Shown: positions 3,372-28,976, numbered from the stretch's first letter. The stretch is DNA of 33,583 bases from a virus (IMGVR_UViG_2684622669_000021:1-33583), one strand, 5' to 3'. Made by a program: numbers and translations. Notes: generated from the letters alone by a model not told the origin.

Positions 3372-3376
3372 TTAAT

Positions 3377-12483: not shown

Positions 12484-12493
12484 CGATATCACC

Positions 12494-12931: not shown

Positions 12932-12982
12932 CTTCTTTCTCCATTAGTGGGTCTGTTACGACCCACAGGTTAATAACAGGCG

Positions 12983-13969: not shown

Positions 13970-13983
13970 TGTTATTTCCTCTC

Positions 13984-14679: not shown

Positions 14680-14681
14680 GA

Positions 14682-14978: not shown

Positions 14979-16654
14979 TGTGATTGCCCACCCTGACCAC
15001 TAACTGCATTCACCATAGCTGACAAAACACTCGGATCCGAAGTTTTAGCTTCGCTTAGCGTCTTGGCACCCTGTGCCGCCGCCATCCCCATCGCCATCAT
15101 TTGTTGCTGCTGTTGCTGCTGTGCCCGTTGCTGGCGAGCCTGCTCAACCTGTTCCTGCGGAACAATGACGGTTGGAGACACTCCGGACATATCAGCGAAT
15201 GCATCGATCGCCTGATCAACGTTGAGTTTGTCGAGAGCTTCTGGTTTCGCTTGCGCAAGTTGACCAATGAAGTTAACCGTGGACGCCAGACTGGACAGGC
15301 CGATAGACTTCTGCGCCTGAGCCATGACGGAAATGTATTCGACCTTCAGGGGCATGCCTTCCATCGCGTCAGGCGGTGGCGGAAGCATGTTTTTACGCAC
15401 CATCATCGAGAAAGCGCGGTCAATGAGAGGATTAAGACATTCATCGTTCAGACGCTCCAGAACCGGCCCCAACATCAGAAGTTTTTCTTCTTTCATTTCG
15501 ATCACCGCTTCAACAGGCATCGAGCGGGTATTGATGTTCTGTAACATCATGAACAGATCGACAAAGTAGGCGCTGTTAATGATTTGACGAGTGTCCTGAA
15601 TGTCTGCCACCAAATCTGCTGTACTGGGGTTAACCAGATAAGCAGGCCTGAAACCATCCTGACCAGTAATCTGATCGATATACGTGATGTCGCCAGGAAG
15701 AAGGGAGGCACGCTGATTCTTGAGGGAAGTCGGAGCAACCATCGGCGGATTGGTGGCTTTATCAATCAACTGCGACTTGCGCTTCTGGAGAAGCTGCAAT
15801 GCCTTAACAGGTCCAAGCGCCAGCATGCCCGGGCATGATGATCCATAAACATCTTCGCCGTTAACTTCCCAGCGCGGAGCCATAATTGGAAACTCATCGA
15901 ATCCGGATTCACGTAACAACTTGTCGTTGTCGCCGCCAACCTCGTAATAAACCGATTTGAATGGCTTGTTCTTGCTATCCAGCTTCGATGTATCGCGGTC
16001 AATGTTCGGGTAAACCGAATGCATAACTTCAATCCACTTCTCGTAGGTGCCGCTTTCCCACATGCTTTTTACGGATTCGCTAACGTTATTTAGCCCGAAC
16101 TCCTGAACAAGCTGACGAACAGTCATAGAGAACTTGCGAAAACAGGTGTCCACACTGCCACGAGGTGAGTTAGCCAGGTAGTAACTGCCTATCGGGAATG
16201 GCATTGTGCGAATGATGTCCTCGTCATCCTCCAGCACCGCCATTGCACCAGTGCTGTATGTACCGAGGCTTCCGTATAACTGCGGCAGCGACTGGTAGAG
16301 ATTCGACTTATTGAACATATCGTTCATGCGGTTCTGCACCGCCTCAAGCCACAACTTAACAGGTCCATAATCCATCATTTCAGGATCTGGCGTAGCCAGG
16401 CGAAACCACGGACGCGCGGGGCTTGTGATGCCTGACATCATGCCGCTGGCGAGAGTGCGCGCCGCCATAGTCCCGGTCGAATCAATAATGCGTGTATTGC
16501 GCCGATCGTTACGGTTGACCTCAGAAGTCAGAAAGCGGGAACCACGCGGGTTGATGTAATCACTCAACTCGCGCCAGTGCGGCTCGAACGACTGACGCTC
16601 GCTTTCAAGTTGTGCGAACTGTTTGTTCAATCGCTCTTTAGTTGTTTCCGCCAT
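14975..16654 (-). CDS. Portal (head-to-tail connector) protein, 559 aa
   Basis: First large gene of the head module. C-terminal Gln/Ala/Met-rich tail (...QRAQQQQQQQMMAMGMAAAQGAKTL...) resembles the T7 gp8 connector C-terminus. AGGAGT RBS. Confidence 0.8.
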   Translation of the reverse strand: MAETTKERLNKQFAQLESERQSFEPHWRELSDYINPRGSRFLTSEVNRNDRRNTRIIDSTGTMAARTLASGMMSGITSPARPWFRLATPDPEMMDYGPVKLWLEAVQNRMNDMFNKSNLYQSLPQLYGSLGTYSTGAMAVLEDDEDIIRTMPFPIGSYYLANSPRGSVDTCFRKFSMTVRQLVQEFGLNNVSESVKSMWESGTYEKWIEVMHSVYPNIDRDTSKLDSKNKPFKSVYYEVGGDNDKLLRESGFDEFPIMAPRWEVNGEDVYGSSCPGMLALGPVKALQLLQKRKSQLIDKATNPPMVAPTSLKNQRASLLPGDITYIDQITGQDGFRPAYLVNPSTADLVADIQDTRQIINSAYFVDLFMMLQNINTRSMPVEAVIEMKEEKLLMLGPVLERLNDECLNPLIDRAFSMMVRKNMLPPPPDAMEGMPLKVEYISVMAQAQKSIGLSSLASTVNFIGQLAQAKPEALDKLNVDQAIDAFADMSGVSPTVIVPQEQVEQARQQRAQQQQQQQMMAMGMAAAQGAKTLSEAKTSDPSVLSAMVNAVSGQGGQSQ

Positions 16655-16668
16655 TTCAATGACTCCTG

Positions 16669-16875
16669 TTACTGACCAAGCAGCGTTTTACCGCTGGTAT
16701 TAGCGGTTGATGTGTCGCCCTGAGAACCGGTAAGCAGCGTAGAACTACGACCAGCAGCAGCGCGACGGCGACGTGTTTCTTCGTCGCGGGCATCAACAAC
16801 GGCGGCATCCTGCTCCTGTGGTGCTGCCTGAACTTCTGGTGTTGCAGGCACTGATGGTGAGCTACCCATGCACAT
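16669..16875 (-). CDS. Small low-complexity protein (68 aa) upstream of portal
   Basis: GGAG RBS before the ATG at 16875. Ala/Pro/Gln/Arg-rich composition gives weak coding support. Confidence 0.35.
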   Translation of the reverse strand: MCMGSSPSVPATPEVQAAPQEQDAAVVDARDEETRRRRAAAGRSSTLLTGSQGDTSTANTSGKTLLGQ

Positions 16876-17301
16876 ATCAATGACTCCGTACGCAATTAAA
16901 TTATTACCAATTTAACCATATATGATTTATTTATCGTAGACAGTTGACATTTAACGCACGAATTATTACCTTTCAGGTAACTAAAGAGTTCATTCCGGTT
17001 ACTAACCTGACTGGCTTGTCGTTAAATTGAACAGGTGGAGTGAGCTTTTATTTTGAGCAGTACGGCGTATGGCACATGCGCCGATAGCGGTCTGGATACG
17101 TTTAAGGGGCACCCTCCCTTGCTCGGGCAAACGAACCAGGTAGCCGGAATGTGCAAGTCGAGCGGTTTTATTCCGCGCACAGGGTTCACCATCCCGGCGA
17201 TTCGGTGTGACACCTCGGAAGAGACGAGGGTACAACGATGAGAGCATTTATGGAGCCGCGATAAAGTGTGGTGCCTTAACAGGCTAAGTGCTCTCAGCGT
17301 T

Positions 17302-17378
17302 GTGGCATTAGCTCAGTTGGACAGAGCAACCGCCTTCTAAGCGGTTGGTCGCAGGTTCGAATCCTGCATGCCGCGCCA
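17302..17378 (+). tRNA. tRNA-Arg, anticodon UCU (reads AGA), with encoded CCA
   Basis: Manual cloverleaf: acceptor GTGGCAT/ATGCCGC (one G-U pair); D-stem GCTC/GAGC; anticodon stem ACCGC/GCGGT with loop CTTCTAA (U33, anticodon TCT, A37); variable loop TGGTC; T-arm GCAGG-TTCGAAT-CCTGC; discriminator G; CCA. Related to but distinct from chromosomal argU. Confidence 0.9.
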
Positions 17379-17421
17379 GAATCACGCCTAAGGACCGTGA
17401 TGCCAGAAGTTCCAGGGGCTT

Positions 17422-17464
17422 GGCGGTGATGGTTTCCCTTGAAGGACTATCACCGCCCTTTTTA
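17422..17464 (+). terminator. Intrinsic terminator downstream of the tRNA
   Basis: Stem GGCGGTGAT...ATCACCGCC (9 bp) followed by CTTTTT. Confidence 0.7.
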
Positions 17465-17541
17465 CAGCAGGACGCCATTGCGATGACTTCATGCTGTAAA
17501 CCAGTACAGCCACGGAAGGCATAACTCATAGCTTCCAGTTC

Positions 17542-17566
17542 GCCCGGTTCGCCGGGCATTTTTTTA
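17542..17566 (+). terminator. Second intrinsic terminator
   Basis: Hairpin CCCGG-TTCG-CCGGG followed by CATTTTTTT. Confidence 0.7.
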
Positions 17567-17635
17567 CTTGAATTTTACCCTCAACAAACCAACATAGAAC
17601 TTGGCATTTGCCATAACTTTCACAAGGAGTCAGCC

Positions 17636-17935
17636 ATGAATGGTTGGAATAGAAAAAAGACTCAATATTTAGCTGAGTGCATCCACGAACACGAAAAAGC
17701 CGACGGAGTAACCTACGATCCTAACGGTATGGTTAGCTACTGGAACACAAAATATAACCTCGTTCCTGCTGAACAGTTGCCAGCATTACAAAATCAGGTA
17801 TCTCTCGAATTAGAAGCTCTACGCGGTGCTGAGACTAACCATGTAACAATTAGCAACATTGGTGCCGCTAAGTTTGGATTCGACTCTGTAATAGGGAATC
17901 ATCTACCTAACTTCGATCCGGAGCCAGTTAAGTAA
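17636..17935 (+). CDS. Orphan moron protein (99 aa), unknown function, opposite strand to the late operon
   Basis: Strong RBS (AAGGAGTCAGCC-ATG). More AT-rich than the flanks. Ends 11 nt from the convergent terL stop. No family recognised from MNGWNRKKTQYLAECIHEHEKADGVTYDPNGMVSYWNTKYN... Confidence 0.6.
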   Translation: MNGWNRKKTQYLAECIHEHEKADGVTYDPNGMVSYWNTKYNLVPAEQLPALQNQVSLELEALRGAETNHVTISNIGAAKFGFDSVIGNHLPNFDPEPVK

Positions 17936-17946
17936 TTTGCTGACCA

Positions 17947-19422
17947 TTATGCATAAGGGTCATAATCCGTTATGGCCCTTCCCTGCTGGCTTTGCTGTCC
18001 TGGTATATTTATGCGTTTCGAGACCGGGAAAGCAAACGTCAGCAGTAGCGCATCGCCTTTACCAGGAGAACGCCCAAGACGCTCTTTGATATCTTCCTTC
18101 GGTTCGATAACGATTTTACCGTCCACACGAACTTTGTACTCTGCCGCCGACAGGTCGTCTGCAGTTTCCTGGTCATCCAGCATGCCGCCCAGCCTCAGCC
18201 ATGTCTTACATGAGTTGAACATCTCCCCACGCTTGTTAAGCATCTGCGGGTCAGTGGACGCACCGCTGAACGGAACAAGTTGCCATGTACGTCCCCAGCC
18301 ATCACCGATTGACTTCAAACCGGTTCCGTAACCGAAGTCGATGAACACCGCGTCAGCCTGGTACTGGTCTTCAAAGTCAGCGATACGCTTCGCCATAATC
18401 AGATCGTCGGTGGTCTTGTTGCCGGTCCACAGCACCTTACTGTGCAGCCCCTGCCGCAGGTATATCACCGCGTCATCAACACCGGAGTATGCAGGGTCAA
18501 CGCCGATTATCACCGGAGCATGTGCCACCTGCGCAGCAGTTACCACCCGTTTCATTGCCTCGTCAGTAAGACCGGTAGGGATAAACTGCAATTCAGATGC
18601 ATCAGGGAATATACCGCGCACACGGATTTTAACGAAGTCGCTGTCTTCCCCGTAGTCATCAACCCATTTCTGCAACTGCTGTTTGTTGGTGCCTTCCACC
18701 GTCCGGCTGTCAATCTGCGCAGTTTTCCAGCGGTGTTTATATTTGCGGAAACATTCGCGGAAACGTCCGGTATTACGCGTCGGGTTTCCGAACGCCACCC
18801 AGATAATCTCAGTGTCTTCGTCCGTTAGCGCACCCTCGGCAACTTCCCACACCAGATCCGCAATGTTCGACGCTTCATCGAATACCACGATGATGCGTTT
18901 GCGCTCGTTGTGTAGTCCGGCGAATGCCTCAGTGTTGTGCTCAGACCAGGGGATTGCGTCAGCTCGCCACCGCTTGTCGTGCCCAGGATCATTGCTGTAC
19001 ATCGCGGTAGCGGTACAGGTAAACCAGTCTTTCGTGATAGCAAGGTTCGACCACTTGATAATTTCCGGCCAGGTCTTCGTTCGTAGCTGGTTGTCGGTGT
19101 TGGCGGTCACCACGACCTTACAATCCTCGCAAGTGGACATGCCCCAGTTGATGAGCATTGAGATGAATGCGGATTTACCAATACCGTGACCAGAAGCACG
19201 TGCCAGCATAAGCGGCTGATAACGCGTCTCTGGATTCTGCAGGTGATCACGTATCTCTCGGAACGCATCGGCCTGCCACTGACGTGGACCGGTAGCATGT
19301 GCCAGTTCAGTCCCCTCTTCCCCCCAAGGGAACGCATAGAGGGCATAGCCAAGCGGATCGTGAGTGAACCCTGCAATATCTTCGATTAACTGCTCTTCAG
19401 GAGATAACGCTGCATCTGTCAC
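17947..19422 (-). CDS. Terminase large subunit (491 aa)
   Basis: Walker A-like ARASGHGIGKS, Walker B-like IIVVFDEAS, and a C-terminal nuclease-type acidic segment (IGVDPAYSG...). ATGA overlap with terS. Confidence 0.85.
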   Translation of the reverse strand: MTDAALSPEEQLIEDIAGFTHDPLGYALYAFPWGEEGTELAHATGPRQWQADAFREIRDHLQNPETRYQPLMLARASGHGIGKSAFISMLINWGMSTCEDCKVVVTANTDNQLRTKTWPEIIKWSNLAITKDWFTCTATAMYSNDPGHDKRWRADAIPWSEHNTEAFAGLHNERKRIIVVFDEASNIADLVWEVAEGALTDEDTEIIWVAFGNPTRNTGRFRECFRKYKHRWKTAQIDSRTVEGTNKQQLQKWVDDYGEDSDFVKIRVRGIFPDASELQFIPTGLTDEAMKRVVTAAQVAHAPVIIGVDPAYSGVDDAVIYLRQGLHSKVLWTGNKTTDDLIMAKRIADFEDQYQADAVFIDFGYGTGLKSIGDGWGRTWQLVPFSGASTDPQMLNKRGEMFNSCKTWLRLGGMLDDQETADDLSAAEYKVRVDGKIVIEPKEDIKERLGRSPGKGDALLLTFAFPVSKRINIPGQQSQQGRAITDYDPYA

Positions 19423-20015
19423 TGATTACCATCCTGACGTTCTTTGAGTCGCTTCCTAGCTGCCGCTATGCGATCAGCAATTGTCACATTCACATTAACA
19501 TCCAAGCGTTCTTTGAATGCGTTGACGTCGACGTGCTTACCAATCAGTTCTAGGTTCTTCACCTTGTCAGGCCATTTAATTTTTTTGAGGATTGTCTCTA
19601 TCGAGTCCTCGTTCATGTTCATGATGGTCGATGACAGATCAAAGCCGCTAAGCGTAGTGCGCCATATTTTCGGCCACTCGCGGATTGGCTTAAGGCTCCC
19701 ATCGTCGTTGAGGATATCAATCACGTCCATCTGGTCGATCTCCACCAGGCGCATGAGAACGTAATCAGCACTGACGCGCATTCGTTTGTTGCGCTCCTCC
19801 ATCAACTCGGCAATCCGTTTTTGAATGCGTTCATCGCGCATCATGACACTGGCTTTAACTGCCGCTGTATTTGGGGAGAATCCTGCGTTAATCGCAGCCT
19901 GAGTCTGGTTTTCAGGCGTTTTGATGTATGACTGGCAATAAGCCTCCTGCATTGCTGTGAGCGGCTTAAATTGCGTTGATTTGCGTTTATAGGTTTTAGG
20001 TTCAGCAGGCATCAT
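19419..20015 (-). CDS. Terminase small subunit (198 aa)
   Basis: N-terminal signature ...LTAMQEAYCQSYIKTPENQTQAAINAGFSPNTAAVKASVMMRDERIQKRIAEL matches the terminase small-subunit family pattern. Start reassigned to an internal ATG; the track ORF carries a 26-aa extension. Confidence 0.8.
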   Translation of the reverse strand: MMPAEPKTYKRKSTQFKPLTAMQEAYCQSYIKTPENQTQAAINAGFSPNTAAVKASVMMRDERIQKRIAELMEERNKRMRVSADYVLMRLVEIDQMDVIDILNDDGSLKPIREWPKIWRTTLSGFDLSSTIMNMNEDSIETILKKIKWPDKVKNLELIGKHVDVNAFKERLDVNVNVTIADRIAAARKRLKERQDGNQ

Positions 20016-20133
20016 AACCACCCTGGTAATTGTTACCGTTGTGGTAATAGTAACATGCAAAATAAAGCCGCCATAGTTGGCGACAGTATTCAAAACCCAT
20101 CAAATTCATCATGCATAATCTACTCGTGACATG

Positions 20134-20475
20134 TCACACTATTAATTTCGTTTCATGCCAGCCTTTAGTCACCCAGCATTGCGAGTCACCATTACACGGG
20201 CATGAATTAACTGGAACTCTCTCGCCGCACTTACCGCAACATTTTCTGCTGATCGATTTTATACGCCCGCGCACGCGTGCATCATCCTGGCGAATCAGTA
20301 AAGCTATATACTCACCAAATTCGTAAGGCGCACGCCCGGGGCGACGCGTGGCACAGTTACGCTCCAGCATTTCAATTTCCTGAGCATCAAGCACAATTTC
20401 CAGCTTACGCACACCAGATGCAGCTTGTCTGGCTCTCTGAGCGGCTTTGCGCTCTGCTGCTGATTTAGCCATCAA
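20134..20475 (-). CDS. Hypothetical protein (113 aa) with a C-terminal Cys-rich, Zn-ribbon-like motif
   Basis: C-terminal RKCCGKCGERVPVNSCPCNGDSQC and a basic helical N-terminus. Last gene before terS. Confidence 0.5.
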   Translation of the reverse strand: MMAKSAAERKAAQRARQAASGVRKLEIVLDAQEIEMLERNCATRRPGRAPYEFGEYIALLIRQDDARVRGRIKSISRKCCGKCGERVPVNSCPCNGDSQCWVTKGWHETKLIV

Positions 20476-20746
20476 TATTCACCTTTATCGCGTACACCTT
20501 TACCGGTTTATCGCCGAAGTGCGGATGTGTGATTGTCTTGATTTCATATCCGTCATACGGAACATCAATTCTGCGGCTGGAATCGTCGCGCTTCGGATAT
20601 CCCTTTGTGATAATCAGTCGGTCATATTCGCGGAACATAATTCGCTTATTCCAGTAGTCATTACACAGGCGATACTCTTCCGTTTTCTCTCCGCGAATCA
20701 TGGCATCGAAGTATTCACCTTTAACGGCAAGTTGCAGGTTAGCCAC
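20465..20746 (-). CDS. Small ASCH/PUA-like (DUF3850-type) domain protein (93 aa)
   Basis: MANLQLAVKGEYFDAMIRGEKTEEYR... resembles the small phage ASCH-like family. Recalled, not searched. Confidence 0.45.
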   Translation of the reverse strand: MANLQLAVKGEYFDAMIRGEKTEEYRLCNDYWNKRIMFREYDRLIITKGYPKRDDSSRRIDVPYDGYEIKTITHPHFGDKPVKVYAIKVNIDG

Positions 20747-21650
20747 GGTTAACCTCCTGTGGCGGTTCTGGTAGCGGCATCCAGTGGGTTACCTCTTTGA
20801 GATACAGGTCTTCGCCATCACCGTCATCCCAAGTGGGCTTGCCATCATTAAACCAGTCGCCATATACGCCGACCTGAGTGTTGGGGATGTTTGGTGGGTA
20901 GTTGTTTTTAAAGTCAGCTGCTAACACATAGCATTGTCGCTCTCCCATTTCAGGCATTCGCTCACTACAGCTTATCCAACTATCCGGAGTTACCGGAGAG
21001 TTGCCAGCCACTCTACGCAAAACAGCCTTAACCGCCTCAATACGGTCATCATCGTAACTTTCCGCCGTATCTATGCGGTCGAGCATGATGATGGCGTTAT
21101 CAATATCAGGATTGCCAGTCCACTCATTACTGCGATTGGATTCGGCAGCCTGGTTACCAGATGCGGGTTGATTGTCGGCCTTACCCAGTCTGTCGTCGCT
21201 GCATGAATGCCCTTCCAGCCAGGCCAATGCTTGTCGCATGAAATACGCAATATGTTTGCCGTGGTAATCGTCTTCATCGATGTGAAAAGCGATACTGCGG
21301 ATGTATTCAATTGCGTTTTCGATGGCCTCTAACGCTATCGGCGCTGGCGGAGTGGTATATAATTTTCGACATTTGTATATCCAACCGGCATGGTCAGGCG
21401 TGTCTGTAAAGCGCAAATCGTCTTCGTAGCACTCACGACTACGTTCTTTCCATTCCGTCCACGGAACACCGCTATTCCAGGTGGGGCGAGTGCAGGACTG
21501 ATACAGAACAGGCTCTGCTTCCAGCGATGCCAGCACAATTCGTGCCAGTTCTTCCGCTTCTTCTGCTGGCAGTACAACGTTGCTACCAGGTCCGTATGTT
21601 TCGCGCCACTGCTTGATTGTCAGCAGTCGCTCTTTGGTAATAGTGGTCAT
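20739..21650 (-). CDS. DUF551-domain phage protein (303 aa)
   Basis: C-terminal ...WISCSERMPEMGERQCYVLAAD...GDWFNDGKPTWDDGDGEDLYLKEVTHWMPLPEPP is the DUF551-type signature common in lambdoid prophages. ATGA overlap with the upstream gene. Confidence 0.6.
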   Translation of the reverse strand: MTTITKERLLTIKQWRETYGPGSNVVLPAEEAEELARIVLASLEAEPVLYQSCTRPTWNSGVPWTEWKERSRECYEDDLRFTDTPDHAGWIYKCRKLYTTPPAPIALEAIENAIEYIRSIAFHIDEDDYHGKHIAYFMRQALAWLEGHSCSDDRLGKADNQPASGNQAAESNRSNEWTGNPDIDNAIIMLDRIDTAESYDDDRIEAVKAVLRRVAGNSPVTPDSWISCSERMPEMGERQCYVLAADFKNNYPPNIPNTQVGVYGDWFNDGKPTWDDGDGEDLYLKEVTHWMPLPEPPQEVNRG

Positions 21651-21856
21651 GTGTTAATCCTCAAAACTTTATGCCCGGGCGCAAAAGCACGCGTTTTGTC
21701 TTTGCTTATTCGCCAGCCATCCTTGCGCGCCTCTTTTGCACAGCCAGCCCATGACGTACCGATATATTCACCGAAGTCTGGCGTTTGATATTTACCATTT
21801 GTACACTGGCGACAATCACAGTAGAGATGCATGGTGTAACTTGCGGCAATAGCCAT
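21647..21856 (-). CDS. Small Cys-containing protein (69 aa), unknown function
   Basis: ATG at 21854-21856 preceded by AAGGAGAG. Sequence MAIAASYTMHLYCDCRQCTNGKYQTPDFGEYIGTSWAGCAKEARKDG... The track ORF 21647..22018 extends into the upstream gene. Confidence 0.5.
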   Translation of the reverse strand: MAIAASYTMHLYCDCRQCTNGKYQTPDFGEYIGTSWAGCAKEARKDGWRISKDKTRAFAPGHKVLRINT

Positions 21857-21857
21857 A

Positions 21858-22628
21858 TCACTCTCCTTTGATGCGAATACCAGCAGCGCGCTCGGCTTCA
21901 CTTTGTTCCCAAAACCACTTGTGAAGCGCCATAAGCTTTTCGTCAATCGGTGCATATTTGCGATTAAAGTAGGCCTGAGCATCTTTCTCAGATTCGTCCG
22001 GTAATTCGCCAGGGCCAAACAGTGTGTTATAAATCCATGCTAGTCCGCTCTTAGCGTCGCCAGTTGCCTGCCATTCGATAATGGCAGCCTGCATGACCAG
22101 AATGTTTTTCCCGATTAATAGGTCCAGTTCTTTGTACCGGTTGCGGATGTATGCATTCTCGCTTTGTAATTTTGCGTTGCGCTTTTCTGAGGCTTCAAGT
22201 AACGCCTGCTTATCGCGTAGCGCTTCTTCCAGTTCAGCAACATGGCATTCACTATCAATAAGGTTGTTCTCTGCTGCTTCAAGCTCAACACGCAGCTTCC
22301 CAACCGTAAGCGCAATCTCCTCGTTCTCCTGATCGCGGCGTTTTATGTATTGCTGGTTTCTTTCCCGTTCATCCAGTAGTGCCAGCACGGTAGCCGGGTT
22401 AGCCTCTGCTATGAATTCAGCGTTTGCATAAGCCTGAGCATCTGTTTCAACCAGGCAGTTAACATGACATTCTGCAATCACGCCACCGGGTTCTCCTTTC
22501 CATTTTTGACAAACAAAAACTCCTGTTATATTCCCATGCTGATTGACCGATGTATGCCCTACGATGTAGCTCCCTTTCGTTGCCTTTTCTGCCGCTTCAC
22601 GCAGTGCCTGATAGTTAATTTTGCTCAC
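21858..22628 (-). CDS. ead/Ea22-like family protein, paralogue 1 (256 aa)
   Basis: GTG start after AAGGAGGCAACCA. N-terminus [18 protein letters not shown]...; central coiled coil. GTGA overlap with the upstream paralogue. Confidence 0.7.
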   Translation of the reverse strand: MSKINYQALREAAEKATKGSYIVGHTSVNQHGNITGVFVCQKWKGEPGGVIAECHVNCLVETDAQAYANAEFIAEANPATVLALLDERERNQQYIKRRDQENEEIALTVGKLRVELEAAENNLIDSECHVAELEEALRDKQALLEASEKRNAKLQSENAYIRNRYKELDLLIGKNILVMQAAIIEWQATGDAKSGLAWIYNTLFGPGELPDESEKDAQAYFNRKYAPIDEKLMALHKWFWEQSEAERAAGIRIKGE

Positions 22629-22653
22629 TGGTTGCCTCCTTTGCGAAGCTGTT
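22621..22653. repeat. Junction repeat (copy 1) shared by the Ea22-like paralogues: RBS + GTG start + stop of the upstream gene
   Basis: TTGCTCACTGGTTGCCTCCTTTGCGAAGCTGTT is identical at 22621-22653 and 23205-23237. Confidence 0.8.
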
Positions 22654-23212
22654 CAGCAATACTTACGCATATCTCTGCGCCTCTAATCAGCCCCGGAACG
22701 TTCTTGTTTGGCCCAACTTCACCATCAACAAAATCAATCATCGCGTTACGAGCCATATCCACCCCCTGCGCACGTACTTCAGCCAGGAGAGCGTCGGTAG
22801 CTGGGGTTTCCGTGAAGTTGTCCTCCCAACCGTAGTACTCCTGACGACAGAAGTTATTAAATTCCTTCTCCGACTGTTTAAGCGCCGCATTCTCCACTGC
22901 CAGCGCCGCGCACTTGGCCTCAAGAGCTGCAACCACTTCCTGATGGTCTTTGTACTTAACGTATGAGCCGGAGATGTCATCACCTTCGGTGTTTAGCCAT
23001 GCGTCATTGCAATTCACTGCGTAGGTTCTGATGCTGATGCTCTCCCGCCCCTGACAGACGCCAGGCCAGTCAATAAAGTATCCGCAATGCCTACCCTCAG
23101 ACGTGCGCGCAGGATAAATGCCGTTATGACCCGGCAAAATATATGCTACCCATTCATCTTGCGTTGCCTGTTCCGCCGCCTCGCGCAGTTCTTGATAGTC
23201 AATCTTGCTCAC
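22625..23212 (-). CDS. ead/Ea22-like family protein, paralogue 2 (195 aa)
   Basis: GTG start at 23210-23212 after AAGGAGG. N-terminus SKIDYQELREAAEQ...; C-terminus ...ETPATDALLAEVRAQ...AEQLRKGGNQ shared with paralogues 3 and 4. Confidence 0.7.
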   Translation of the reverse strand: MSKIDYQELREAAEQATQDEWVAYILPGHNGIYPARTSEGRHCGYFIDWPGVCQGRESISIRTYAVNCNDAWLNTEGDDISGSYVKYKDHQEVVAALEAKCAALAVENAALKQSEKEFNNFCRQEYYGWEDNFTETPATDALLAEVRAQGVDMARNAMIDFVDGEVGPNKNVPGLIRGAEICVSIAEQLRKGGNQ

Positions 23213-23237
23213 TGGTTGCCTCCTTTGCGAAGCTGTT
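23205..23237. repeat. Junction repeat (copy 2)
   Basis: Identical 33-mer to 22621-22653. Confidence 0.8.
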
Positions 23238-23892
23238 CCGCACAATGCAGCAGGGCGTCCGTCGCTTCTTTCACCGTAACGATGTCGCCATCGTCCAGCC
23301 CGACAACCGTCGCGTCCTTAACGAACACCGAGCAAAGGTCATTAAACGCCTGCGCCCGCACTTCAGCCAGGAAAGCGTCGGTGGCTGGCGTTTCCCGTGA
23401 ACGGTAAGACCAAACAATGTCGTCTGTTTCACTGGGTTCTTCATGAGAGCAATTTGGGCAGACAGCAGTACAACCAGCATGATCTTCTATGAGCATCTTC
23501 AGCCACGAGTTCTCCTCCGCCAGCGTCACGCGACTGGCCTCCAGTTCTGCTACGCGCTGTTTTGCAGCATCCAGTTCAATCGACAATTTTTCCAACTGCT
23601 CTTTATGCTTTTTATATTCCTGATATGCGTGCCAAGACTGACCTTTGCGCACACTATCAGTGATATCAGTAATCTGTTCTGGTGTTAGCGTGGTCAGTGG
23701 CTGTGATGGGAAAATAAGCACTTTCCCGGAATCCCAATCAAAACCAGCGTGAATTGACTGAACCTCAACTGAAGGTGTTGAACCAATGCTGCCAGGCGAA
23801 TGAACAACGATTGTTACATCCATATCGCGACGATGGCTGTGGTTGTTGGACAAAATACGATTCACCAACTCAGAAAATTTGGAAAATTTCAT
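23209..23892 (-). CDS. ead/Ea22-like C-terminal module fused to a distinct N-terminal domain (227 aa)
   Basis: ATG start. N-terminus MKFSKFSELVNRILSNNHSHRRDMDVTIVVHSPGSIG... is unrelated to the SKINYQ N-termini. C-terminus ...[15 protein letters not shown]...AEQLRKGGNQ is shared with the other paralogues. Confidence 0.65.
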   Translation of the reverse strand: MKFSKFSELVNRILSNNHSHRRDMDVTIVVHSPGSIGSTPSVEVQSIHAGFDWDSGKVLIFPSQPLTTLTPEQITDITDSVRKGQSWHAYQEYKKHKEQLEKLSIELDAAKQRVAELEASRVTLAEENSWLKMLIEDHAGCTAVCPNCSHEEPSETDDIVWSYRSRETPATDAFLAEVRAQAFNDLCSVFVKDATVVGLDDGDIVTVKEATDALLHCAEQLRKGGNQ

Positions 23893-24179
23893 GCTGATTC
23901 CCCTTTCTCTGCTCTCTCCTGTCGGAACATCACTATCATCAGGTCGCCTTTTGTCGCTATCCTCGCTGTTGTGCCTGGTTCAATGCTGCCAAGTTCAAAT
24001 GCGTCATAGAACGCTTCTAATGCCTTCTGGCGTAGTTCCTGTTTGCGCCGTTTTTTCCACTGTTTCAGGAAAATGGAACCCAGCCATCGCCATGTACGGG
24101 ACATGATGTAAAGCCAACCGAGAAGTGCCAGACCGGTATTTAGGGCCGTATCGAGCGTTATCGTGGTGTCGATATTCAC
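23889..24179 (-). CDS. Small predicted single-pass membrane protein (96 aa) inside the Ea22-like array
   Basis: GTG start after AAGGAAGCAGCCA, overlapping the upstream stop. Hydrophobic segment ALNTGLALLGWLYIMSRTWRWLGSIF followed by a basic stretch KQWKKRRKQELRQK. Confidence 0.55.
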   Translation of the reverse strand: MNIDTTITLDTALNTGLALLGWLYIMSRTWRWLGSIFLKQWKKRRKQELRQKALEAFYDAFELGSIEPGTTARIATKGDLMIVMFRQERAEKGESA

Positions 24180-24877
24180 TGGCTGCTTCCTTTGCGAATC
24201 TGTTCCGCCCATTCTTCAAGGGATTTCTCCGCATATTCACCAGACAGGCCATCAATCGGATGCGCTTCATTAGCCAACTCTTCTTTCGCTGACAAAATCA
24301 TGCGTGTAACGTCGAAAACTTCACGCAAAGACTTATTGATAAATCCGTGATTGAACGCAGCAGCAAGACGGCTGGCGGTATAGTTAATCCCCTCGTTGCG
24401 TGCTTCCGCACGAATTTCAGCCAGAAAAGCATCGGTAGCTGGAGTTTCGCTGTGGTGTAGGGCATCGTTGATAATCATTGCAGCAACACCAGCCTGCCCT
24501 GCATCCGTGACCGACACATGATCAAGAGTTACAGCCATTGCGTGTTTCAGCCCGGCGTTCTCTGCCACCAGAGCCGCGAGCTTAGTCTCAAGCGGTGCTA
24601 TTCGGCACATAGCATCAATATTTGTGTCCTCCAGGCGCTTAATTTCACCAAGTAGCTCCAGTGCAACCTTTGGGTTGAATGCGGCAATATAACGAGCGTT
24701 GTTCTCTGCGTTTTTCAGTCCATCAAAGCCGGTCCATTTGATAACATCTTCACATCGTTTATCACCGGGCGTATGCACAGCATACGTACCTGTACCCGTC
24801 GAAATAAACGCGACCCATTCGCCCTGTGTTGCCTGTTTTGCTATCTCACGTAGTGCCTGATAGTTAATTTTGCTCAC
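24176..24877 (-). CDS. ead/Ea22-like family protein, paralogue 4 (233 aa)
   Basis: GTG start at 24875-24877 after AGGAGGCAACCA. N-terminus [23 protein letters not shown]...; conserved ...[15 protein letters not shown]... segment. Confidence 0.7.
24177..24204. repeat. Junction repeat (copy 3, diverged)
   Basis: CACTGGCTGCTTCCTTTGCGAATCTGTT, a diverged copy of the same junction. Confidence 0.6.
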
Positions 24878-25616
24878 TGGTTGCCTCCTGGCAAAGCTGG
24901 GCGACAATATCGCGATATTTATTCAGCTCCCGCAGCGCGACACAGACTCGCTCCCATTTCCGGATATCACTTTTCGCCCGACGCAGTTCGCGGTTTGCCT
25001 GTCGCAGCGATGGCAGAACCAGATTATCCACTCGATTCTCAAGCGGCTGCACAATGTCTGCCACAGTTTCTGTTTTAATATCTTCCTGTGTTGCAGCTTC
25101 CTGTCCCGGTAACGCAACACCTGCTGGTTGAGGAAAGGCCTTACCATCACTTTCCGTTACCAGCGCGGCTTTCGGCTCTGCTGGTAAATTATCGCCCGGC
25201 ATGCAGTAACGAAATTTACCGTTCTGATTAACGCGTGCCAGCCGCCCCGTTGCGGTTACCACCGCCAGCGTGGAAGCAACCTTGCGAGTACTGACACCGA
25301 ACTTACCCGCCAGTTCCTCACACGTTTTAGCCCCATCCTGACCGATAAACTCAATCATCATGTCTGCGGTAACTTTTTGTTCGACCTCCCCGGTCAGCAT
25401 ATCCTGTGCTTCAGATTTTACTGGCCGCTCTTCGGTTACCCGGGATTCACCTTCGCCAGCCAGAGACCAGGTGTGACCAGTTTTATCAACAACGCCATTT
25501 CTTTTGAGTTCCCACAGCTCGTTGACAGCCTCTTCACGACTGATATCAAGTCGCGCAGCCAGTTCTACCGACGTGGCTTTTCCCATTGCTTTCAGTGCGT
25601 CAAATACAGTTTCCAT
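24864..25616 (-). CDS. Winged-helix DNA-binding protein (250 aa) with two HTH-like modules
   Basis: ATG at 25614-25616 after GGGAGGAAA. Two HTH-like segments: [28 protein letters not shown] and [31 protein letters not shown]. Recalled as a common prophage family of unknown function. Confidence 0.55.
24871..24900. repeat. Junction repeat (copy 4, diverged)
   Basis: TGCTCACTGGTTGCCTCCTGGCAAAGCTGG, a diverged copy of the same junction. Confidence 0.6.
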
Positions 25617-25638
25617 TAAAATTTCCTCCCGGTAAAAA

Positions 25639-26385
25639 TCACTTCGCAATTCCTGGCTGGACGACATTCGGACGCCAGCTCTCCCAGTTAAAATTCACCC
25701 ATCGCCCGCCGTTCATGGTCATGCGATCCATAATCCGCTCGCCGAGCAATGTTTTCATGGCCTCATAGTTCAGGTTTGTCAGCATCCCCACGCTGCGCAT
25801 CGACGCTGTCCGGCGATCAACAATCTGGTGCAGCACCACCTGCTCGTTTTTTGTCTCGCGCTGAATGCCAATTTCATCAAGAACCAGCAGATCCACTTGG
25901 CACAGTTCCCGCAAAAATTTTTCGCCTGATTGCCCGTCGTCATAGCTGGCGTGTAGAGCACTCATGACATCAGCCACGGTAACCACAATCACTGTCTGGC
26001 CATCTTTCAGCAGGCGATTCCCGATAGCCGCCGCCAGATGGTTTTTTCCGGTACCAGGTTTTCCGCTGAACGCAAAATTTGTACACCCGGTCATCAGTTC
26101 ATCAGCGATAGATTTCGCCTGGTTCAACGCGTATCGCTGACCGTCGTTCTGCACCTGGTAATTCGCAAACGAGCATTTGCGGTGCAATGGCTGGATGCCA
26201 GAGCGATTCAGAATTTTTTCCACCCGCAACTGACGATTCTGACGGTTGATCTCCTCACAACGTTTCTGGCCTTCGGAAAGTTGCCACTCGCGCCACTCCG
26301 CTACCGTTTTGAATGGGGCGGTTACATGTGGCGGGGCCAGTCTGCGGATACGTTCAAGAATGCCTCCTGCCGCAATATTTTTCAT
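25639..26385 (-). CDS. DnaC-like replicative helicase loader (AAA+ ATPase), 248 aa
   Basis: Walker [16 protein letters not shown] and Walker [10 protein letters not shown]. Lies right after the replisome-organiser gene. Confidence 0.85.
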
Positions 26386-26391
26386 GGTCAG

Positions 26392-27357
26392 TTACCCCCT
26401 GAAGCCCGGCGGAATTTCGGTATCCGGTTCAGAAATGTGATTCACACAACGCTGTACAGGCGAACGCCCCAGACGAATAACCAGCTCATCCCATTTTTCG
26501 CGAAGCTTTGACGGGCTCATGACGTTTTTTACCCAGAAGGGATCCCGCTGCACCCGACCAAACATTTCGCAAATTTGTCTGTGAGTTCTGCCATCCAGCA
26601 TCCGCATTGTGCGCACATCATTGGCCCATGCAGCCCAGTTGGGTTCTTTCGGTCGCATGATTTCGCCATCATCGCTGGCAGCCTGCTCGTAAAGACTCAC
26701 GATTCGTCCCCAGATCCACTGCGCACACGCTAAATCTTCCTGGCTACCCCACTGGCGTTTTTTCGCACTGAACACAACCGCGTCAGGGTGTCGGGTTAAA
26801 AAATCCTGTTCAGCCGTCTGCATGTCCGGTTGCGAAGCTTCCGGACGAGAAGTGTTTTTATTCTCTGTAGTGATCTCTGTTGTATTCTCTGTAAGATCAT
26901 CAGGCCATTTTGACCCGATGACATTGTGTCGTTTTGAACCAATGGAGCGTGTCATTTTGGCCTCTTCCATCGTGTCATTTTGACCTGATGGAGCGGCGCA
27001 TTTTGACCTGATGGATTCGCTCACTTTGCCACCATCTAAAAGCTCGCTCTCGTAATTAATCGTGTAAAAATTAGTCATGTCACGCTTTGATTTGTTGAGC
27101 TTTTCGCAACGCAAAAGCCCCAGCGCTTTCAGACTTGCAAATGCGCGTTTTAACGTTGACTCTGACCAGAACGGGAACTGTTCCAGCCATTGTTCTGTTG
27201 TGTTATAAATCCAGCGAACACCATCACATTCCATGCCGGAACCGGTATCTCTCAACCAGTAATGCAGCTGCTGTAACACAATGGCTTCGTTCAGACCTAT
27301 TTTCATCGCCAGCTGAGTGTTAATAACCAGTGGGCGTTCAGCAAAAAGAAGACTCAT
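26392..27357 (-). CDS. Replication initiation/replisome organiser protein (O-like), about 321 aa
   Basis: Position upstream of the DnaC-like gene. N-terminal HTH-like region. Start uncertain: ATG at 27355-27357 or TTG at 27411. Confidence 0.6.
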   Translation of the reverse strand: MSLLFAERPLVINTQLAMKIGLNEAIVLQQLHYWLRDTGSGMECDGVRWIYNTTEQWLEQFPFWSESTLKRAFASLKALGLLRCEKLNKSKRDMTNFYTINYESELLDGGKVSESIRSKCAAPSGQNDTMEEAKMTRSIGSKRHNVIGSKWPDDLTENTTEITTENKNTSRPEASQPDMQTAEQDFLTRHPDAVVFSAKKRQWGSQEDLACAQWIWGRIVSLYEQAASDDGEIMRPKEPNWAAWANDVRTMRMLDGRTHRQICEMFGRVQRDPFWVKNVMSPSKLREKWDELVIRLGRSPVQRCVNHISEPDTEIPPGFRG

Positions 27358-27859
27358 AATTCCATCCGGCTTTTTGTTGATATTGCTGACGATACGCACG
27401 CTTGAAAGCAATGGCTTTTTCTATAAGCTCGTCAGTCTCACGTTCCACAACAGCTGGATCCGCAAAAAGCAGCCCGGACTCCACCACATCGCCATATTCT
27501 TTGTTTAACCCGGCGATCATGTACGTAATGCTTTTTCCGTCAGTAATTTCACAATACAACCTGAAATCGCTGATCCGGATAGCCTCCATAATTGCCGGAA
27601 TCAGCGCCGTGAATTTTTCACGCTTATCCCTGGTGTCGATAGCTTTCCAGCGTTCGAATATCTTCACCCTGTTAACGCCCAGCGCCCGTTGATCAACCGC
27701 GCCATCATCAAACGTGACGCGATGAACATCGATGTTCGGGCGTTCTTTCAGAGCCCAGAATGCTTCCGTGATTAATATCGTCGCCTGCTCCTGCGTCATT
27801 CCTGGTCGGCATACCCAGGCATCCAGAGCCTCGCGAGCCTGCTCAGGAGTGAATATCAT
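27338..27859 (-). CDS. Hypothetical early protein at the cII/YdaT position (173 aa)
   Basis: Lies between the Cro-like gene and the replication genes. Assignment is by position only. Confidence 0.45.
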   Translation of the reverse strand: MIFTPEQAREALDAWVCRPGMTQEQATILITEAFWALKERPNIDVHRVTFDDGAVDQRALGVNRVKIFERWKAIDTRDKREKFTALIPAIMEAIRISDFRLYCEITDGKSITYMIAGLNKEYGDVVESGLLFADPAVVERETDELIEKAIAFKRAYRQQYQQKAGWNYESSFC

Positions 27860-28118
27860 TGTTCACCGCCAGTGATTCATTCGACATACACTTATTTTCA
27901 CAAGGTAGTCCATCTGTTGGGTTGGGATAAATGTCAGGGCGAAGTTCGTGGGGAGTAATTTCCCAATTCAGTAATGCACAGAGTGACGACACGCGTTCAG
28001 CAGGAACCTTGCCTTTAATGAACCACTTGCCTACGGCCTGGGAGCTAATGCCAAAGTGTTTGCCAATGTCAGTTTTCGACATTTTTTTAGAGATCTTATC
28101 GTGAATTTGATTACTCAT
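27843..28118 (-). CDS. Cro/YdaS-like HTH transcriptional regulator (91 aa)
   Basis: HTH segment SKTDIGKHFGISSQAVGKWFIKGKVPAERV. Divergent from the repressor gene. Start at the ATG at 28116-28118 after GGTGGAAAG; the track ORF extends to a GTG at 28145. Confidence 0.6.
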   Translation of the reverse strand: MSNQIHDKISKKMSKTDIGKHFGISSQAVGKWFIKGKVPAERVSSLCALLNWEITPHELRPDIYPNPTDGLPCENKCMSNESLAVNNDIHS

Positions 28119-28157
28119 ACTTTCCACCAGTACTATTAATTTCACCTACGCTACCAT

Positions 28158-28195
28158 CAAAAACTATAAGTTTCAACACAAAACCTATAGTTTTG
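28158..28195. promoter_or_regulatory. Operator-like pair of near-palindromic 14-15-bp sites between the divergent repressor and Cro-like genes
   Basis: AAAACTATAAGTTT (28160-28173) and AAACCTATAGTTTT (28181-28194) are inverted copies of one motif with a CTATAG centre. Confidence 0.55.
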
Positions 28196-28224
28196 CTGAT
28201 TGGTGAAACCTTTGGTTGTATACT
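28194..28224 (+). promoter_or_regulatory. Candidate maintenance promoter for the repressor, likely giving a leaderless mRNA
   Basis: TATACT (28219-28224) lies 6 nt upstream of the repressor ATG at 28231 with no SD. Possible -35 TTGCTG at 28194-28199. Confidence 0.35.
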
Positions 28225-28230
28225 TAAAAA

Positions 28231-28641
28231 ATGAGTAAAATAAACCATCCAATATTTGCTGAGAGAGTTCGGCAAGCAATGAGCGAACATGGCTGGTCGT
28301 TAGCCGGTCTGGCTAAAAAGGTTATGCTGTCCCATACCGCTGTGCGTAAGTGGGCAACAGGAGAAACCATTGCCAGCGGAGAAAGATTAAAAAGACTTGC
28401 CGCGGTAACAGGAAAACCAGAACATTGGTTTTTTATGCCGCTAAATGAACATTCAAAGGAAGAAGATGCACCACCACTAATCCAGCTTGACGACAAAGAA
28501 AAGGCGCTATTGTCCCTTTTTAATCAGTTGCCAGAAACGGAAAAGCTGAGACTAATCATGCACACAAAAAGCATTCTTCATGAAATGGATCTTCTAAAAA
28601 ACGATGTATACGACATAATCAATGATATTCAAAAACAATAA
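28231..28641 (+). CDS. Prophage repressor, XRE-family HTH, RacR/CI-like (136 aa)
   Basis: N-terminal HTH FAERVRQAMSEHGWSLAGLAKKVMLSHTAVRKWATGETIASGERLKRLAAVTG. Divergent from the Cro-like gene and followed by its own terminator. Confidence 0.7.
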   Translation: MSKINHPIFAERVRQAMSEHGWSLAGLAKKVMLSHTAVRKWATGETIASGERLKRLAAVTGKPEHWFFMPLNEHSKEEDAPPLIQLDDKEKALLSLFNQLPETEKLRLIMHTKSILHEMDLLKNDVYDIINDIQKQ

Positions 28642-28975: not shown

Positions 28976-28976
28976 T

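What the first reader, a model, noticed from the sequence alone, without database searches (positions are those of the whole stretch)
19419..25616. No Q-type antiterminator or lysis cassette between the replication and packaging modules
In lambdoid prophages the interval between the replication genes and terminase normally holds nin genes, Q and the holin/endolysin/spanin cassette. Here it holds only a wHTH protein, the Ea22-like array, a DUF551 protein, an ASCH-like protein and a Cys-rich 113-aa protein before terS; nothing looks like an endolysin or antiterminator. Late control and lysis must be encoded elsewhere, probably beyond the IS2 at the left edge, or be missing. The Cys-rich protein (20134-20475) directly upstream of terS is a candidate late regulator by position only.
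Basis: partly seen in the sequence, partly recalled or inferred. Interest (0 to 1): 0.45.

Follow-up and report, generated by a model that had tools for sequence, protein, structure and literature searches.

The report
Ordinary gene order of epsilon15-type prophage
The missing antiterminator and lysis genes are not an anomaly: the packaging-to-tail half of this prophage is of the epsilon15/phiV10 type, which keeps its lysis genes at the far end after the tailspike, and here it is joined to a lambda-like early half.

Summary
None of the 11 ORFs in 19419-25667 matches a Q antiterminator, endolysin, holin or spanin in Pfam, PHROGs or NCBIfam. The phiV10 lysis proteins find nothing anywhere in the window.

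The absence is ordinary. Window 894-20770 is 95.5-98% identical to phage phiV10 (genus Uetakevirus). In phiV10, epsilon15, O157 typing phage 9 and three E. coli prophages the order is replication, Ea22/DUF551 genes, ASCH, gp55, terS, terL, heads and tails, tailspike, then holins, GH19 endolysin and spanins. None has a Q gene.

Window 21508-33583 is 97.7-99.9% identical to a lambdoid prophage. There the DUF551 gene is followed by RusA, Q, holin, lysozyme and a lambda-type terminase. The crossover lies inside the DUF551 gene.

The window starts at the end of a draft contig, inside IS2. The expected lysis cassette therefore cannot be read.

The Cys-rich protein is a predicted ribbon-helix-helix DNA binder with four conserved cysteines. 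Relatives head the nin regions of Q-bearing phages, so it is not a Q substitute. It always carries the palindrome GTGACATGTCAC at its 3' end.

Late control in this genus appears to be uncharacterised. Shared sequence motifs head the late units.

The parts
1..846 (-). Partial IS2, with its terminal inverted repeat ending at 846. Position 1 is the end of the draft contig.
   Evidence: 99% identical to IS2 copies annotated in E. coli genomes. The look-up of encoding contigs places window position 1 at the end of BBWB01000018.1. In the closest intact relative, position 847 lies in intergenic DNA 50 bp after the stop of the 824-aa gene.
897..3371 (-). 824-aa virion protein, homologue of phiV10 gp20. 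It is the last late gene visible before IS2.
   Evidence: 99.3% amino-acid identity to phiV10 gp20. In relatives it is followed by small genes, Bro-N, tailspike, holins, GH19 endolysin and spanin.
894..20770 (-). Uetakevirus (phiV10-type) late arm: gp55, terS, terL, portal, capsid and tail/ejection proteins. One small swapped segment lies at 17567-17945.
   Evidence: blastn identity to phiV10 of 98.2% (894-17566), 95.5% (17946-20133) and 97.5% (20134-20770).
16913..16981 (-). Head of the portal/structural unit: palindrome GTTACC-N5-GGTAAT (16965-16981) and motif CATATATGGTT (16914-16924) upstream of the gp06 homologue (16669-16875).
   Evidence: The same composite heads the structural, tail-fibre and lysis units of phiV10, epsilon15 and three prophages.
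17947..19422 (-). Large terminase subunit.
   Evidence: Collinear with phiV10 gp02 at 95.5% nucleotide identity.
19419..20015 (-). Small terminase subunit. The likely start is ATG 20015 or 20012; the ORF is open back to TTG 20093.
   Evidence: PHROG 51 at E 3e-58, matching residues 28-219 of the long ORF. 98.7% identical to phiV10 gp01.
20014..20048 (-). Two tandem 17-bp palindromes of the type ATTACC-N5-GGTAAT, abutting the terS start codon.
   Evidence: The equivalent sites are annotated as repressor-binding in epsilon15 RefSeq. They are nearly invariant between the E. coli and Salmonella phages.
20058..20084 (-). Hairpin plus T-run resembling an intrinsic terminator, between the Cys-rich gene and terS.
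   Evidence: Found by the pattern scan. The RNA fold is -13.7 kcal/mol with z = -2.4. It is conserved in phiV10, epsilon15 and 65FD, and annotated as a terminator in both reference phages.
20126..20137 (.). Perfect palindrome GTGACATGTCAC overlapping the stop codon of the Cys-rich gene.
   Evidence: It is exact at the gene's 3' end in 76 of 80 related loci, and also in ZF40 and Chlobot. One search shows the gene-palindrome association across IMG/VR.
20134..20472 (-). 112-aa Cys-rich protein (phiV10 gp55, epsilon15 gp49, PHROG 536). Predicted ribbon-helix-helix DNA binder with conserved C40, C79, C82 and C99.
20465..20746 (-). 93-aa ASCH-like protein.
   Evidence: 100% identical to phiV10 gp54, which is annotated as ASCH domain-containing. 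PHROG 625 at E 7e-51. Pfam ASCH is only a weak match at E 0.06.
20739..21650 (-). DUF551 protein of 303 aa. The join between the phiV10-like and lambdoid-like DNA lies at about 20770-21508.
   Evidence: Pfam DUF551 at E 3.5e-20. blastn boundaries are. The ORF is intact.
21647..25667 (-). Accessory early-right genes: 69-aa PHROG 926 protein, three Ead/Ea22 proteins, one Ea22-related protein, DUF4752 and the DUF1627/wHTH protein.
25639..28641 (.). Lambdoid replication and immunity region: DnaC-like, O-like, CII-like/YdaT, Cro-like/YdaS and a 136-aa HTH repressor. Operator-like repeats AAACCTATAGTTTT lie at 28160-28194 and 28723-28736.
32218..33583 (+). Excisionase and a lambda-type integrase at the right edge.

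Best explanation
The interval is the distal, accessory part of the early-right operon of a mosaic temperate phage. Its late arm runs from the ASCH gene through gp55, terS, terL, portal, capsid and ejection proteins. That arm is of the phiV10/epsilon15 type (podovirus genus Uetakevirus). Its early arm is lambdoid: int, xis, exonuclease, repressor, cro-like, cII-like, O-like, DnaC-like, DUF1627 and the Ea22 array. The two are joined inside the shared DUF551 gene.

In Uetakeviruses no nin, Q or lysis block lies between replication and terS. The lysis cassette is the last rightward unit, after the tailspike. It consists of two holin-like membrane proteins, a GH19 endolysin and Rz/Rz1-type spanins. 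In this element the cassette should lie beyond the IS2 at the left edge, which is also where the draft contig stops. These points are shown.

The following is inferred. Late expression in this genus does not use one Q-modified transcript. It appears to use several units (structural, tail fibre, lysis). Each is headed by the same composite: an ATTACC-N5-GGTAAT palindrome, annotated as the prophage-repressor operator, then CATATGTGGTT, then a -10-like TAATA/TATAAT. terS-terL lacks that promoter-like motif. It sits directly behind a terminator-like hairpin and two palindromes, so it is probably reached by read-through from the early-right transcript.

The Cys-rich protein is a ribbon-helix-helix regulator. 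It probably binds the GTGACATGTCAC palindrome at its own 3' end. In complete relatives the same palindrome recurs beside the terminators that close the terS-terL and structural units.
Against: The lysis cassette of this particular element was not seen, because the contig ends in IS2. It could be deleted or rearranged. No exact copy of the ASCH-DUF551-Ea22 join exists in 5,426 complete E. coli genomes. The join could therefore be a rare recombinant or an assembly artefact across a repeat shared by two prophages. The promoter and operator roles of the motifs are inferred from position and from database annotation only. The generic sigma-70 and terminator scans were not above shuffled expectation. 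The cognate Uetakevirus repressor, PerC-like and AlpA-like genes are absent from the window. The mosaic may therefore not regulate its late arm normally.
Confidence: 0.85

Rival explanations
1. The Cys-rich protein is the late regulator, a functional analogue of Q. It would bind the GTGACATGTCAC palindrome, which overlaps a weak promoter-like sequence. It would then let RNA polymerase read through the terminator just downstream and into terS and the later units.
For: It is the last early-right gene and lies directly before terS in 79 of 79 related loci with room to tell. It stays on the late-arm side of the mosaic join. It is a predicted DNA binder. Its palindrome contains GTGACA, followed after 17-18 nt by a 4/6 -10-like hexamer in the window, phiV10, epsilon15, 65FD and Chlobot, and then by a terminator-like hairpin. 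The layout of site, promoter, terminator and late genes resembles the lambda late promoter region. Further copies of the palindrome lie beside the terminators after terL and after the structural operon.
Against: There is no sequence or fold similarity to any Q family. RHH proteins are mostly repressors or DNA-processing accessory factors (background knowledge). Homologues of 58-97% identity with the same palindrome sit before NinB in lambdoid phages that have their own Q, as in ZF40 gp22 with Q-like gp25. Others sit before xis/int or in P2-like phages. The -10-like element is absent at the other palindrome copies and in ZF40. The 79 loci are all at least 95% identical, so their synteny is not independent evidence.
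Confidence: 0.12
2. The element is a decayed prophage that once had Q and lysis genes in this interval and lost them by deletion, perhaps mediated by IS2.
For: An IS2 is present at the left edge. The early arm comes from a lineage whose other members carry Q and lysis genes downstream of DUF551.
Against: All ORFs across the join and in the late arm are intact and 95-99% identical to plaque-forming phages. The arrangement ASCH, gp55, terS is the native Uetakevirus order in every complete genome examined. IS2 lies 19 kb away from the interval.
Confidence: 0.04
3. The lambdoid/Uetakevirus join is an assembly artefact. The strain would carry two separate prophages that share an Ea22/DUF551 repeat, and the draft assembler joined the wrong arms.
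For: The source is a draft contig that ends in a repeat. The ASCH-DUF551-Ea22 block is shared at about 95% identity by lambdoid, P1-like and Uetakevirus genomes. The exact join is found in no complete E. coli genome. A false join would also explain why the late arm's operators have no cognate repressor in the window.
Against: The DUF551 ORF is uninterrupted. Mosaic joins at exactly such shared genes are the usual mode of phage recombination (background knowledge). Nothing in the sequence itself signals a misjoin.
Confidence: 0.15

Closest known systems
Escherichia phage phiV10 and Salmonella phage epsilon15 (genus Uetakevirus)
   Same: The late arm is 95.5-98% identical to phiV10 in nucleotide sequence. 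The order Ea22/DUF551 genes, ASCH, gp55, terminator, terS, terL, tRNA-Arg region, portal through gp20 is the same. The palindromes before terS and before the structural operon are the same. There is no Q. In the reference phages the lysis cassette lies after the tailspike.
   Different: The whole early arm is replaced. The window has no homologue of the two-HTH repressor, gp41/gp42, the DnaT/P replication genes, the PerC-like, AlpA-like or RecE/T genes, or the P4-type integrase. A different small gene lies between terL and the tRNA (17567-17945). The tailspike and lysis end is not visible.
[not shown]
   Same: The segment from int, xis and exonuclease through repressor, YdaS, YdaT, O-like, DnaC-like, DUF1627 and the Ea22 array to DUF551 is 97.7-99.9% identical.
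   Different: Downstream of DUF551, that prophage continues with a toxin-antitoxin pair, DUF968, RusA, the Q antiterminator, a methyltransferase, holin, lysozyme, Rz and a lambda-type terminase. The window continues with ASCH, gp55 and a phiV10-type terminase.
Lambda Q and its late promoter with a nearby terminator (from general knowledge of lambda)
   Same: A DNA site overlaps a promoter-like sequence, followed within about 50 nt by a terminator and then the packaging genes.
   Different: The adjacent protein has no Q-family signature and has a predicted RHH fold. Its relatives coexist with genuine Q genes. The later late units carry their own shared upstream motifs rather than depending visibly on one promoter.
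Ribbon-helix-helix regulators (Arc/Mnt of P22, CopG, MetJ, NikR, ParD/MazE antitoxins, TraM)
   Different: It has an extra C-terminal region. The four conserved cysteines (C40, C79, C82, C99) tie the C-terminus to helix 1. It matches no Pfam family. The palindrome lies at the 3' end of the gene rather than in its promoter.
Repressors that bind many sites across a phage genome (stoperators of mycobacteriophage L5; recalled from memory, not checked here)
   Same: There are 15-18 copies of one operator-like palindrome in phiV10 and epsilon15. They are placed at the heads of early, middle and late units rather than only at the immunity region.
   Different: The sites here are symmetric and lie mostly upstream of first genes. 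Binding by the repressor is only an annotation in the epsilon15 record. In the window the cognate repressor gene is absent.

Membership tests
Uetakevirus (phiV10/epsilon15-type) genome | Collinear packaging, head and ejection-protein arm: terS, terL, portal, protease, capsid, Bbp16-like protein, gp10 staple, tubular tail proteins and three large internal proteins. | tested here: met
   95.5-98.2% nucleotide identity to phiV10 over 894-20133. Gene-by-gene correspondence is shown.
Uetakevirus (phiV10/epsilon15-type) genome | No nin, Q or lysis block before terS. The gp55/gp49 gene and a terminator lie directly upstream of terS. | tested here: met
Uetakevirus (phiV10/epsilon15-type) genome | Lysis cassette (holin-like x2, GH19 endolysin, Rz/Rz1) after the tailspike at the end of the late region. 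| not testable with these tools
   The window starts at the end of contig BBWB01000018.1, inside IS2. An exact-junction search of genome contigs found nothing. All six intact relatives examined have the cassette at that position.
Uetakevirus (phiV10/epsilon15-type) genome | Cognate two-HTH repressor with ATTACC-N5-GGTAAT sites in the immunity region, and a P4-type integrase. | tested here: not met
   No tblastn hit for phiV10 gp40, gp41, gp42 or gp31. The palindrome occurs only in the late arm. The early arm is lambdoid. The element is therefore a hybrid, not a full member.
Lambdoid late-control and lysis module (nin genes, Q, holin, endolysin, spanin) | A Q-family antiterminator gene between replication and the late genes. 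| tested here: not met
   No Q family in Pfam, PHROGs or NCBIfam for any interval ORF.
Lambdoid late-control and lysis module (nin genes, Q, holin, endolysin, spanin) | Holin, endolysin and spanin genes downstream of Q and upstream of the terminase. | tested here: not met
   Pfam finds no muralytic domain in the large late-arm proteins either.
Q-type antiterminators (as a label for the Cys-rich protein) | Sequence or fold relationship to a known Q family. | tested here: not met
   No HMM hit. No significant PDB sequence hit. The predicted fold is RHH.
Q-type antiterminators (as a label for the Cys-rich protein) | A binding site within a late promoter, followed by a terminator that is read through only when the protein is present. 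| tested here: inconclusive
   The palindrome, a weak promoter-like sequence and a hairpin are present before terS. The promoter-like part is not conserved at other copies of the palindrome. No functional data exist.
Ribbon-helix-helix DNA-binding proteins (as a label for the Cys-rich protein) | A strand-helix-helix core that superposes on solved RHH proteins. | tested here: met
   [not shown]

The most novel reading that the evidence does not exclude
Uetakevirus-type phages may control late genes without Q, through DNA elements at operon boundaries. The RHH-zinc protein encoded just before terS would act at its GTGACATGTCAC palindrome beside intrinsic terminators. Copies lie at the ends of the early-right, terS-terL and structural units, where the protein would set read-through. 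The structural, tail-fibre and lysis units would use a shared, non-canonical promoter element (CATATGTGGTT plus a -10) under a many-site repressor. If the mosaic in this window is real and inducible, it shows that the late arm can run under a foreign lambdoid immunity and early region. That would point to factors carried within the late arm itself, such as the RHH-zinc protein.
Probability: 0.12. Interest if true: 0.55.

Novelty: already known. Interest (0 to 1): 0.17.

Why it matters
For the finding as written, it matters little. It removes a false alarm: a gene order that looks defective against a lambda template is the standard order of a well-described phage genus. It also shows that the window is a lambdoid/Uetakevirus mosaic cut off by a contig end. 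The by-products may be more useful. How epsilon15/phiV10-type phages switch on their late genes appears not to have been worked out; I found nothing on it in the literature that could be searched. The shared motifs at the heads of the late units, and the conserved cassette of regulator, palindrome and terminator, give concrete and testable handles on that question.

Tried and rejected
- The first AlphaFold run of the Cys-rich protein used 31 close homologues and gave pLDDT 53, which was unusable.
- A profile search with alignment A2 again listed only homologues of 70% identity or more. A third search seeded with distant members was needed to build a useful alignment.
- Sequence searches of the PDB gave nothing significant. 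The best matches were TraR at E 0.5 and CpcG at E 0.2.
- Foldseek against the PDB and BFVD was uninformative.
- Scanning the members of alignment A4 against Pfam gave no family.
- The generic promoter and terminator scan of 16500-29000 was not above shuffled expectation. Only conserved, aligned elements were used.
- The exact IS2/phage junction was not found in genome contigs. No complete E. coli genome holds the junction or the ASCH-DUF551-Ea22 join.
- The papers on the SPC32H repressor (PNAS 2016) are not held. The identity of ATTACC-N5-GGTAAT as the repressor operator therefore rests on the epsilon15 RefSeq annotation.
- The ZX5 and epsilon15 papers that could be read say nothing on late regulators.
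- An early reading that IS2 interrupts a gp21-like small membrane gene was dropped. In the closest intact relative that position is intergenic.
- CATATGTGGTT as an IHF site and GTGACATGTCAC as a CRP or LexA site were considered by eye and rejected on spacing.


Full report
**What is in the interval**

All real genes between the replication genes and terS lie on the minus strand.
- a DUF1627/winged-helix protein (24864-25667);
- three Ead/Ea22 proteins (24176-24907, 22625-23245, 21858-22628);
- an Ea22-related 227-aa protein (23209-23892);
- DUF4752 (23889-24212);
- a 69-aa PHROG 926 protein (21647-21856);
- DUF551 (20739-21650);
- an ASCH-like protein (20465-20746);
- the Cys-rich protein (20134-20472);
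- terS.

None hits a Q antiterminator, endolysin, holin or spanin family in Pfam, PHROGs or NCBIfam. No plausible small membrane protein is hidden in the interval. Rfam finds only a tRNA-Arg, so there is no known RNA antitermination element either.

**What the element is**

A similarity search of 17900-28500 against phage genomes returned phiV10, epsilon15, O157 typing phages 9 and 10, ZX5 and other members of the genus Uetakevirus for the terminase side. It returned Stx and other lambdoid phages for the rest.

Pairwise blastn shows that window 894-20770 is 95.5-98.2% identical to phiV10. One small segment (17567-17945) is swapped.

The switch between the two kinds of DNA falls inside the DUF551 gene (about 20770-21508), which remains an intact 303-codon ORF. 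The window is therefore a mosaic of a lambdoid early arm and a Uetakevirus late arm.

None of the following phiV10 proteins has a homologue in the window: repressor gp40, gp41, gp42, the replication proteins, the PerC-like and AlpA-like proteins, integrase, tail fibre, Oac, holin, endolysin and Rz/Rz1.

**Why Q and lysis genes are not there**

In phiV10, epsilon15, typing phage 9 and three E. coli prophages inserted beside yfgI the order is always the same:
- replication genes;
- a variable set of Eae, Ea22 and DUF551 genes;
- often an ASCH gene;
- gp55/gp49;
- terS, terL, then the head and ejection-protein genes up to the 824-aa protein;
- small genes, a Bro-N gene and a small antisense gene;
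- tailspike, and sometimes an O-antigen modification gene;
- two holin-like membrane proteins, a GH19 endolysin and Rz/Rz1-type spanins;
- the attachment site.

No Q gene is annotated in any of them. The nin-Q-lysis block that the lambdoid early arm normally leads into was replaced by the crossover.

**The left edge**

Positions 1-846 are IS2, and its end is at 846. A look-up of the 824-aa protein found its source: draft contig BBWB01000018.1 of assembly GCA_001515025.1. Window position 1 is the end of that contig.

The assembly broke in the repeat, so the sequence to the left is not available here. An exact search for the IS2/phage junction in the reference genome collection found nothing.

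The closest intact relative over this stretch is E. coli WP8-S17-ESBL-12. There position 847 is intergenic, 50 bp after the stop of the 824-aa gene. Further left lie a 98-aa gene, DUF4760, Bro-N, a small antisense gene, the tailspike, the two holin-like genes, the GH19 endolysin and the DUF2514 spanin.

It remains unverified for this strain.

**The Cys-rich protein**

It is 98% identical to phiV10 gp55 and 78% identical to epsilon15 gp49. It belongs to PHROG 536, labelled transcriptional regulator, and matches no Pfam family.

Across homologues down to about 32% identity, the conserved residues include C40, C79, C82 and C99. That pattern suggests one zinc site tying the C-terminus to the first helix.

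In 79 of 79 informative IMG/VR loci it lies directly before terS. Those loci are all at least 95% identical, so this is weak evidence.

More distant relatives sit elsewhere:
- ZF40 gp22 is followed by NinB, an HNH gene and a Q-like protein.
- phiKO2 gp45 is in a phage with its own Q-like gp38.
- A P2-like Yersinia phage has its copy after the replication gene.
- Chlobot has its copy in the early-left operon before xis and int.
- Eight IMG/VR loci place it before a terminator and NinB, and others before an excisionase.

The family is therefore a mobile early-operon gene that coexists with Q. Position beside terS is not a family trait.

**A conserved site that travels with the gene**

The perfect palindrome GTGACATGTCAC overlaps the stop codon of the gene in the window (20126-20137).
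- It is exact at the same place in 76 of 80 related loci. Three more loci carry a single mismatch there, and the fourth ends at the contig edge before the site.
- It also occurs there in epsilon15, 65FD, Kp4865-1, ZF40 and Chlobot.
- A scan of IMG/VR for the 14-bp form returned 120 loci. Of these, 32 also encode a homologue of the protein at 33-98% identity. About 19 have the palindrome right at the gene's 3' end; those homologues are 58-96% identical.
- In epsilon15, phiV10 and the WP8 prophage, further exact copies lie next to the terminators that end terS-terL and the structural operon. Chance expectation is about 0.005 exact copies per genome.

The palindrome is very probably the protein's binding site. 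What binding does at operon ends is unknown. It could act as a roadblock or insulator, or control read-through.

**Late control**

The epsilon15 RefSeq record annotates ATTACC-N5-GGTAAT as a repressor-binding site at seven places. With up to two mismatches there are 18 copies in epsilon15 and 15 in phiV10, against about 1.2 expected. They lie at both sides of the repressor gene, after each early-right terminator, and before terS (a tandem pair), the structural operon, the tail fibre gene, the lysis cassette and int.

A second motif, CATATGTGGTT, sits about 25-45 nt downstream of that palindrome in four units: structural, tail fibre, lysis and the post-replication early-right unit. After a further 5 nt comes GGTAATAAT, GGTAATAGAAT or TGTATAAT in the three late units. 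In the post-replication unit a second copy of the palindrome follows instead. This is seen in phiV10 and epsilon15 and, for most units, in three prophages. The pattern suggests separately promoted late units with a shared, non-canonical promoter element.

terS lacks this motif. It is preceded by the protein's palindrome, a conserved terminator-like hairpin (-13.7 kcal/mol, z = -2.4) and two tandem palindromes that abut the start codon. terS-terL is therefore probably the tail of the early-right transcript.

In the window only the late-arm copies survive: 20014-20048 before terS, and 16965-16981 with 16914-16924 before the gp06 homologue. The window's own operator-like repeats, AAACCTATAGTTTT, are confined to its immunity region.

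The late arm's operators therefore have no cognate repressor in the window. Either the mosaic relies on its lambdoid repressor shutting off the early-right promoter, or a second prophage supplies the repressor, or the join is an assembly artefact, or the element is not properly regulated. These alternatives cannot be separated in silico.

**Verdict**

The finding is a correct observation with an ordinary explanation. The gene order is that of a known phage genus, joined to a lambdoid early arm by the usual kind of mosaic recombination. The element is truncated in the data by a contig end. Interest in the finding itself is low. The motifs noted in passing are modestly interesting leads on how this genus controls late transcription, which the literature available to me does not describe.

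Noticed in passing
[not shown]
   Followed up: yes
window 20126-20137; also L093 2142, 19517 and 39612; L001 2262 and 19493; L095 10551 and 30750; L086 3785; L092 2789: The perfect palindrome GTGACATGTCAC sits at the 3' end of the RHH-zinc gene in Uetakeviruses, ZF40, Chlobot and many IMG/VR contigs, often followed by an intrinsic terminator. Extra copies flank the terminators after terL and after the structural operon in complete Uetakeviruses. It is a likely operator of the protein. Its function at operon boundaries is unknown.
   Followed up: partly
window 20014-20048 and 16965-16981; L001 and L093 genome-wide: The palindrome ATTACC-N5-GGTAAT is annotated as repressor-binding in epsilon15. 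It occurs 15-18 times in phiV10 and epsilon15 at the heads of nearly all transcription units. In the window only three late-arm copies remain, and the cognate repressor gene is absent, so they are orphan operators.
   Followed up: partly
window 16914-16924; L001 3308, 20921, 24739 and 35116; L093 2988, 19940, 24751 and 35953: The motif CATATGTGGTT is followed after 5 nt by a -10-like TAATA/TATAAT. It lies 35-75 nt upstream of the first gene of the structural, tail-fibre and lysis units, and of one early-right unit where no -10-like sequence follows it. It is absent upstream of terS. It is a candidate shared late-promoter element with no canonical -35.
   Followed up: partly
window 19419-20093: The 224-codon terS ORF, also annotated at that length in phiV10, is probably over-extended. 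The PHROG match starts at residue 28, and the epsilon15 terS start aligns with ATG 20012-20015. The upstream 26 codons cover the conserved hairpin and palindromes.
   Followed up: partly
window 17567-17945 (ORF 17636-17935, + strand): Between terL and the tRNA, the phiV10 gp03 gene is replaced by an unrelated 99-aa antisense ORF with no Pfam or PHROG match. Related prophages carry other genes at this spot, so it looks like a swap site for accessory genes. The window lacks the GTGACATGTCAC copy that 51 of 76 relatives have here.
   Followed up: partly
window 17302-17378 (+) and 17308-17559 (-): A tRNA-Arg (anticodon TCT) lies between terL and the portal operon, as in relatives. The 83-aa ORF homologous to phiV10 gp04 overlaps it on the opposite strand, so that ORF may not be a real gene.
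   Followed up: no
window 1-846: The window begins at the end of draft contig BBWB01000018.1 (assembly GCA_001515025.1), inside IS2. The IS2 marks an assembly break. It may or may not mark a structural disruption of the prophage.
   Followed up: yes
window 28231-28641: The prophage repressor is only 136 aa. It has an HTH_3 domain and no peptidase S24 domain, so it is probably not self-cleaving in the SOS response. Induction may need an antirepressor.
   Followed up: no
[not shown]
   Followed up: no
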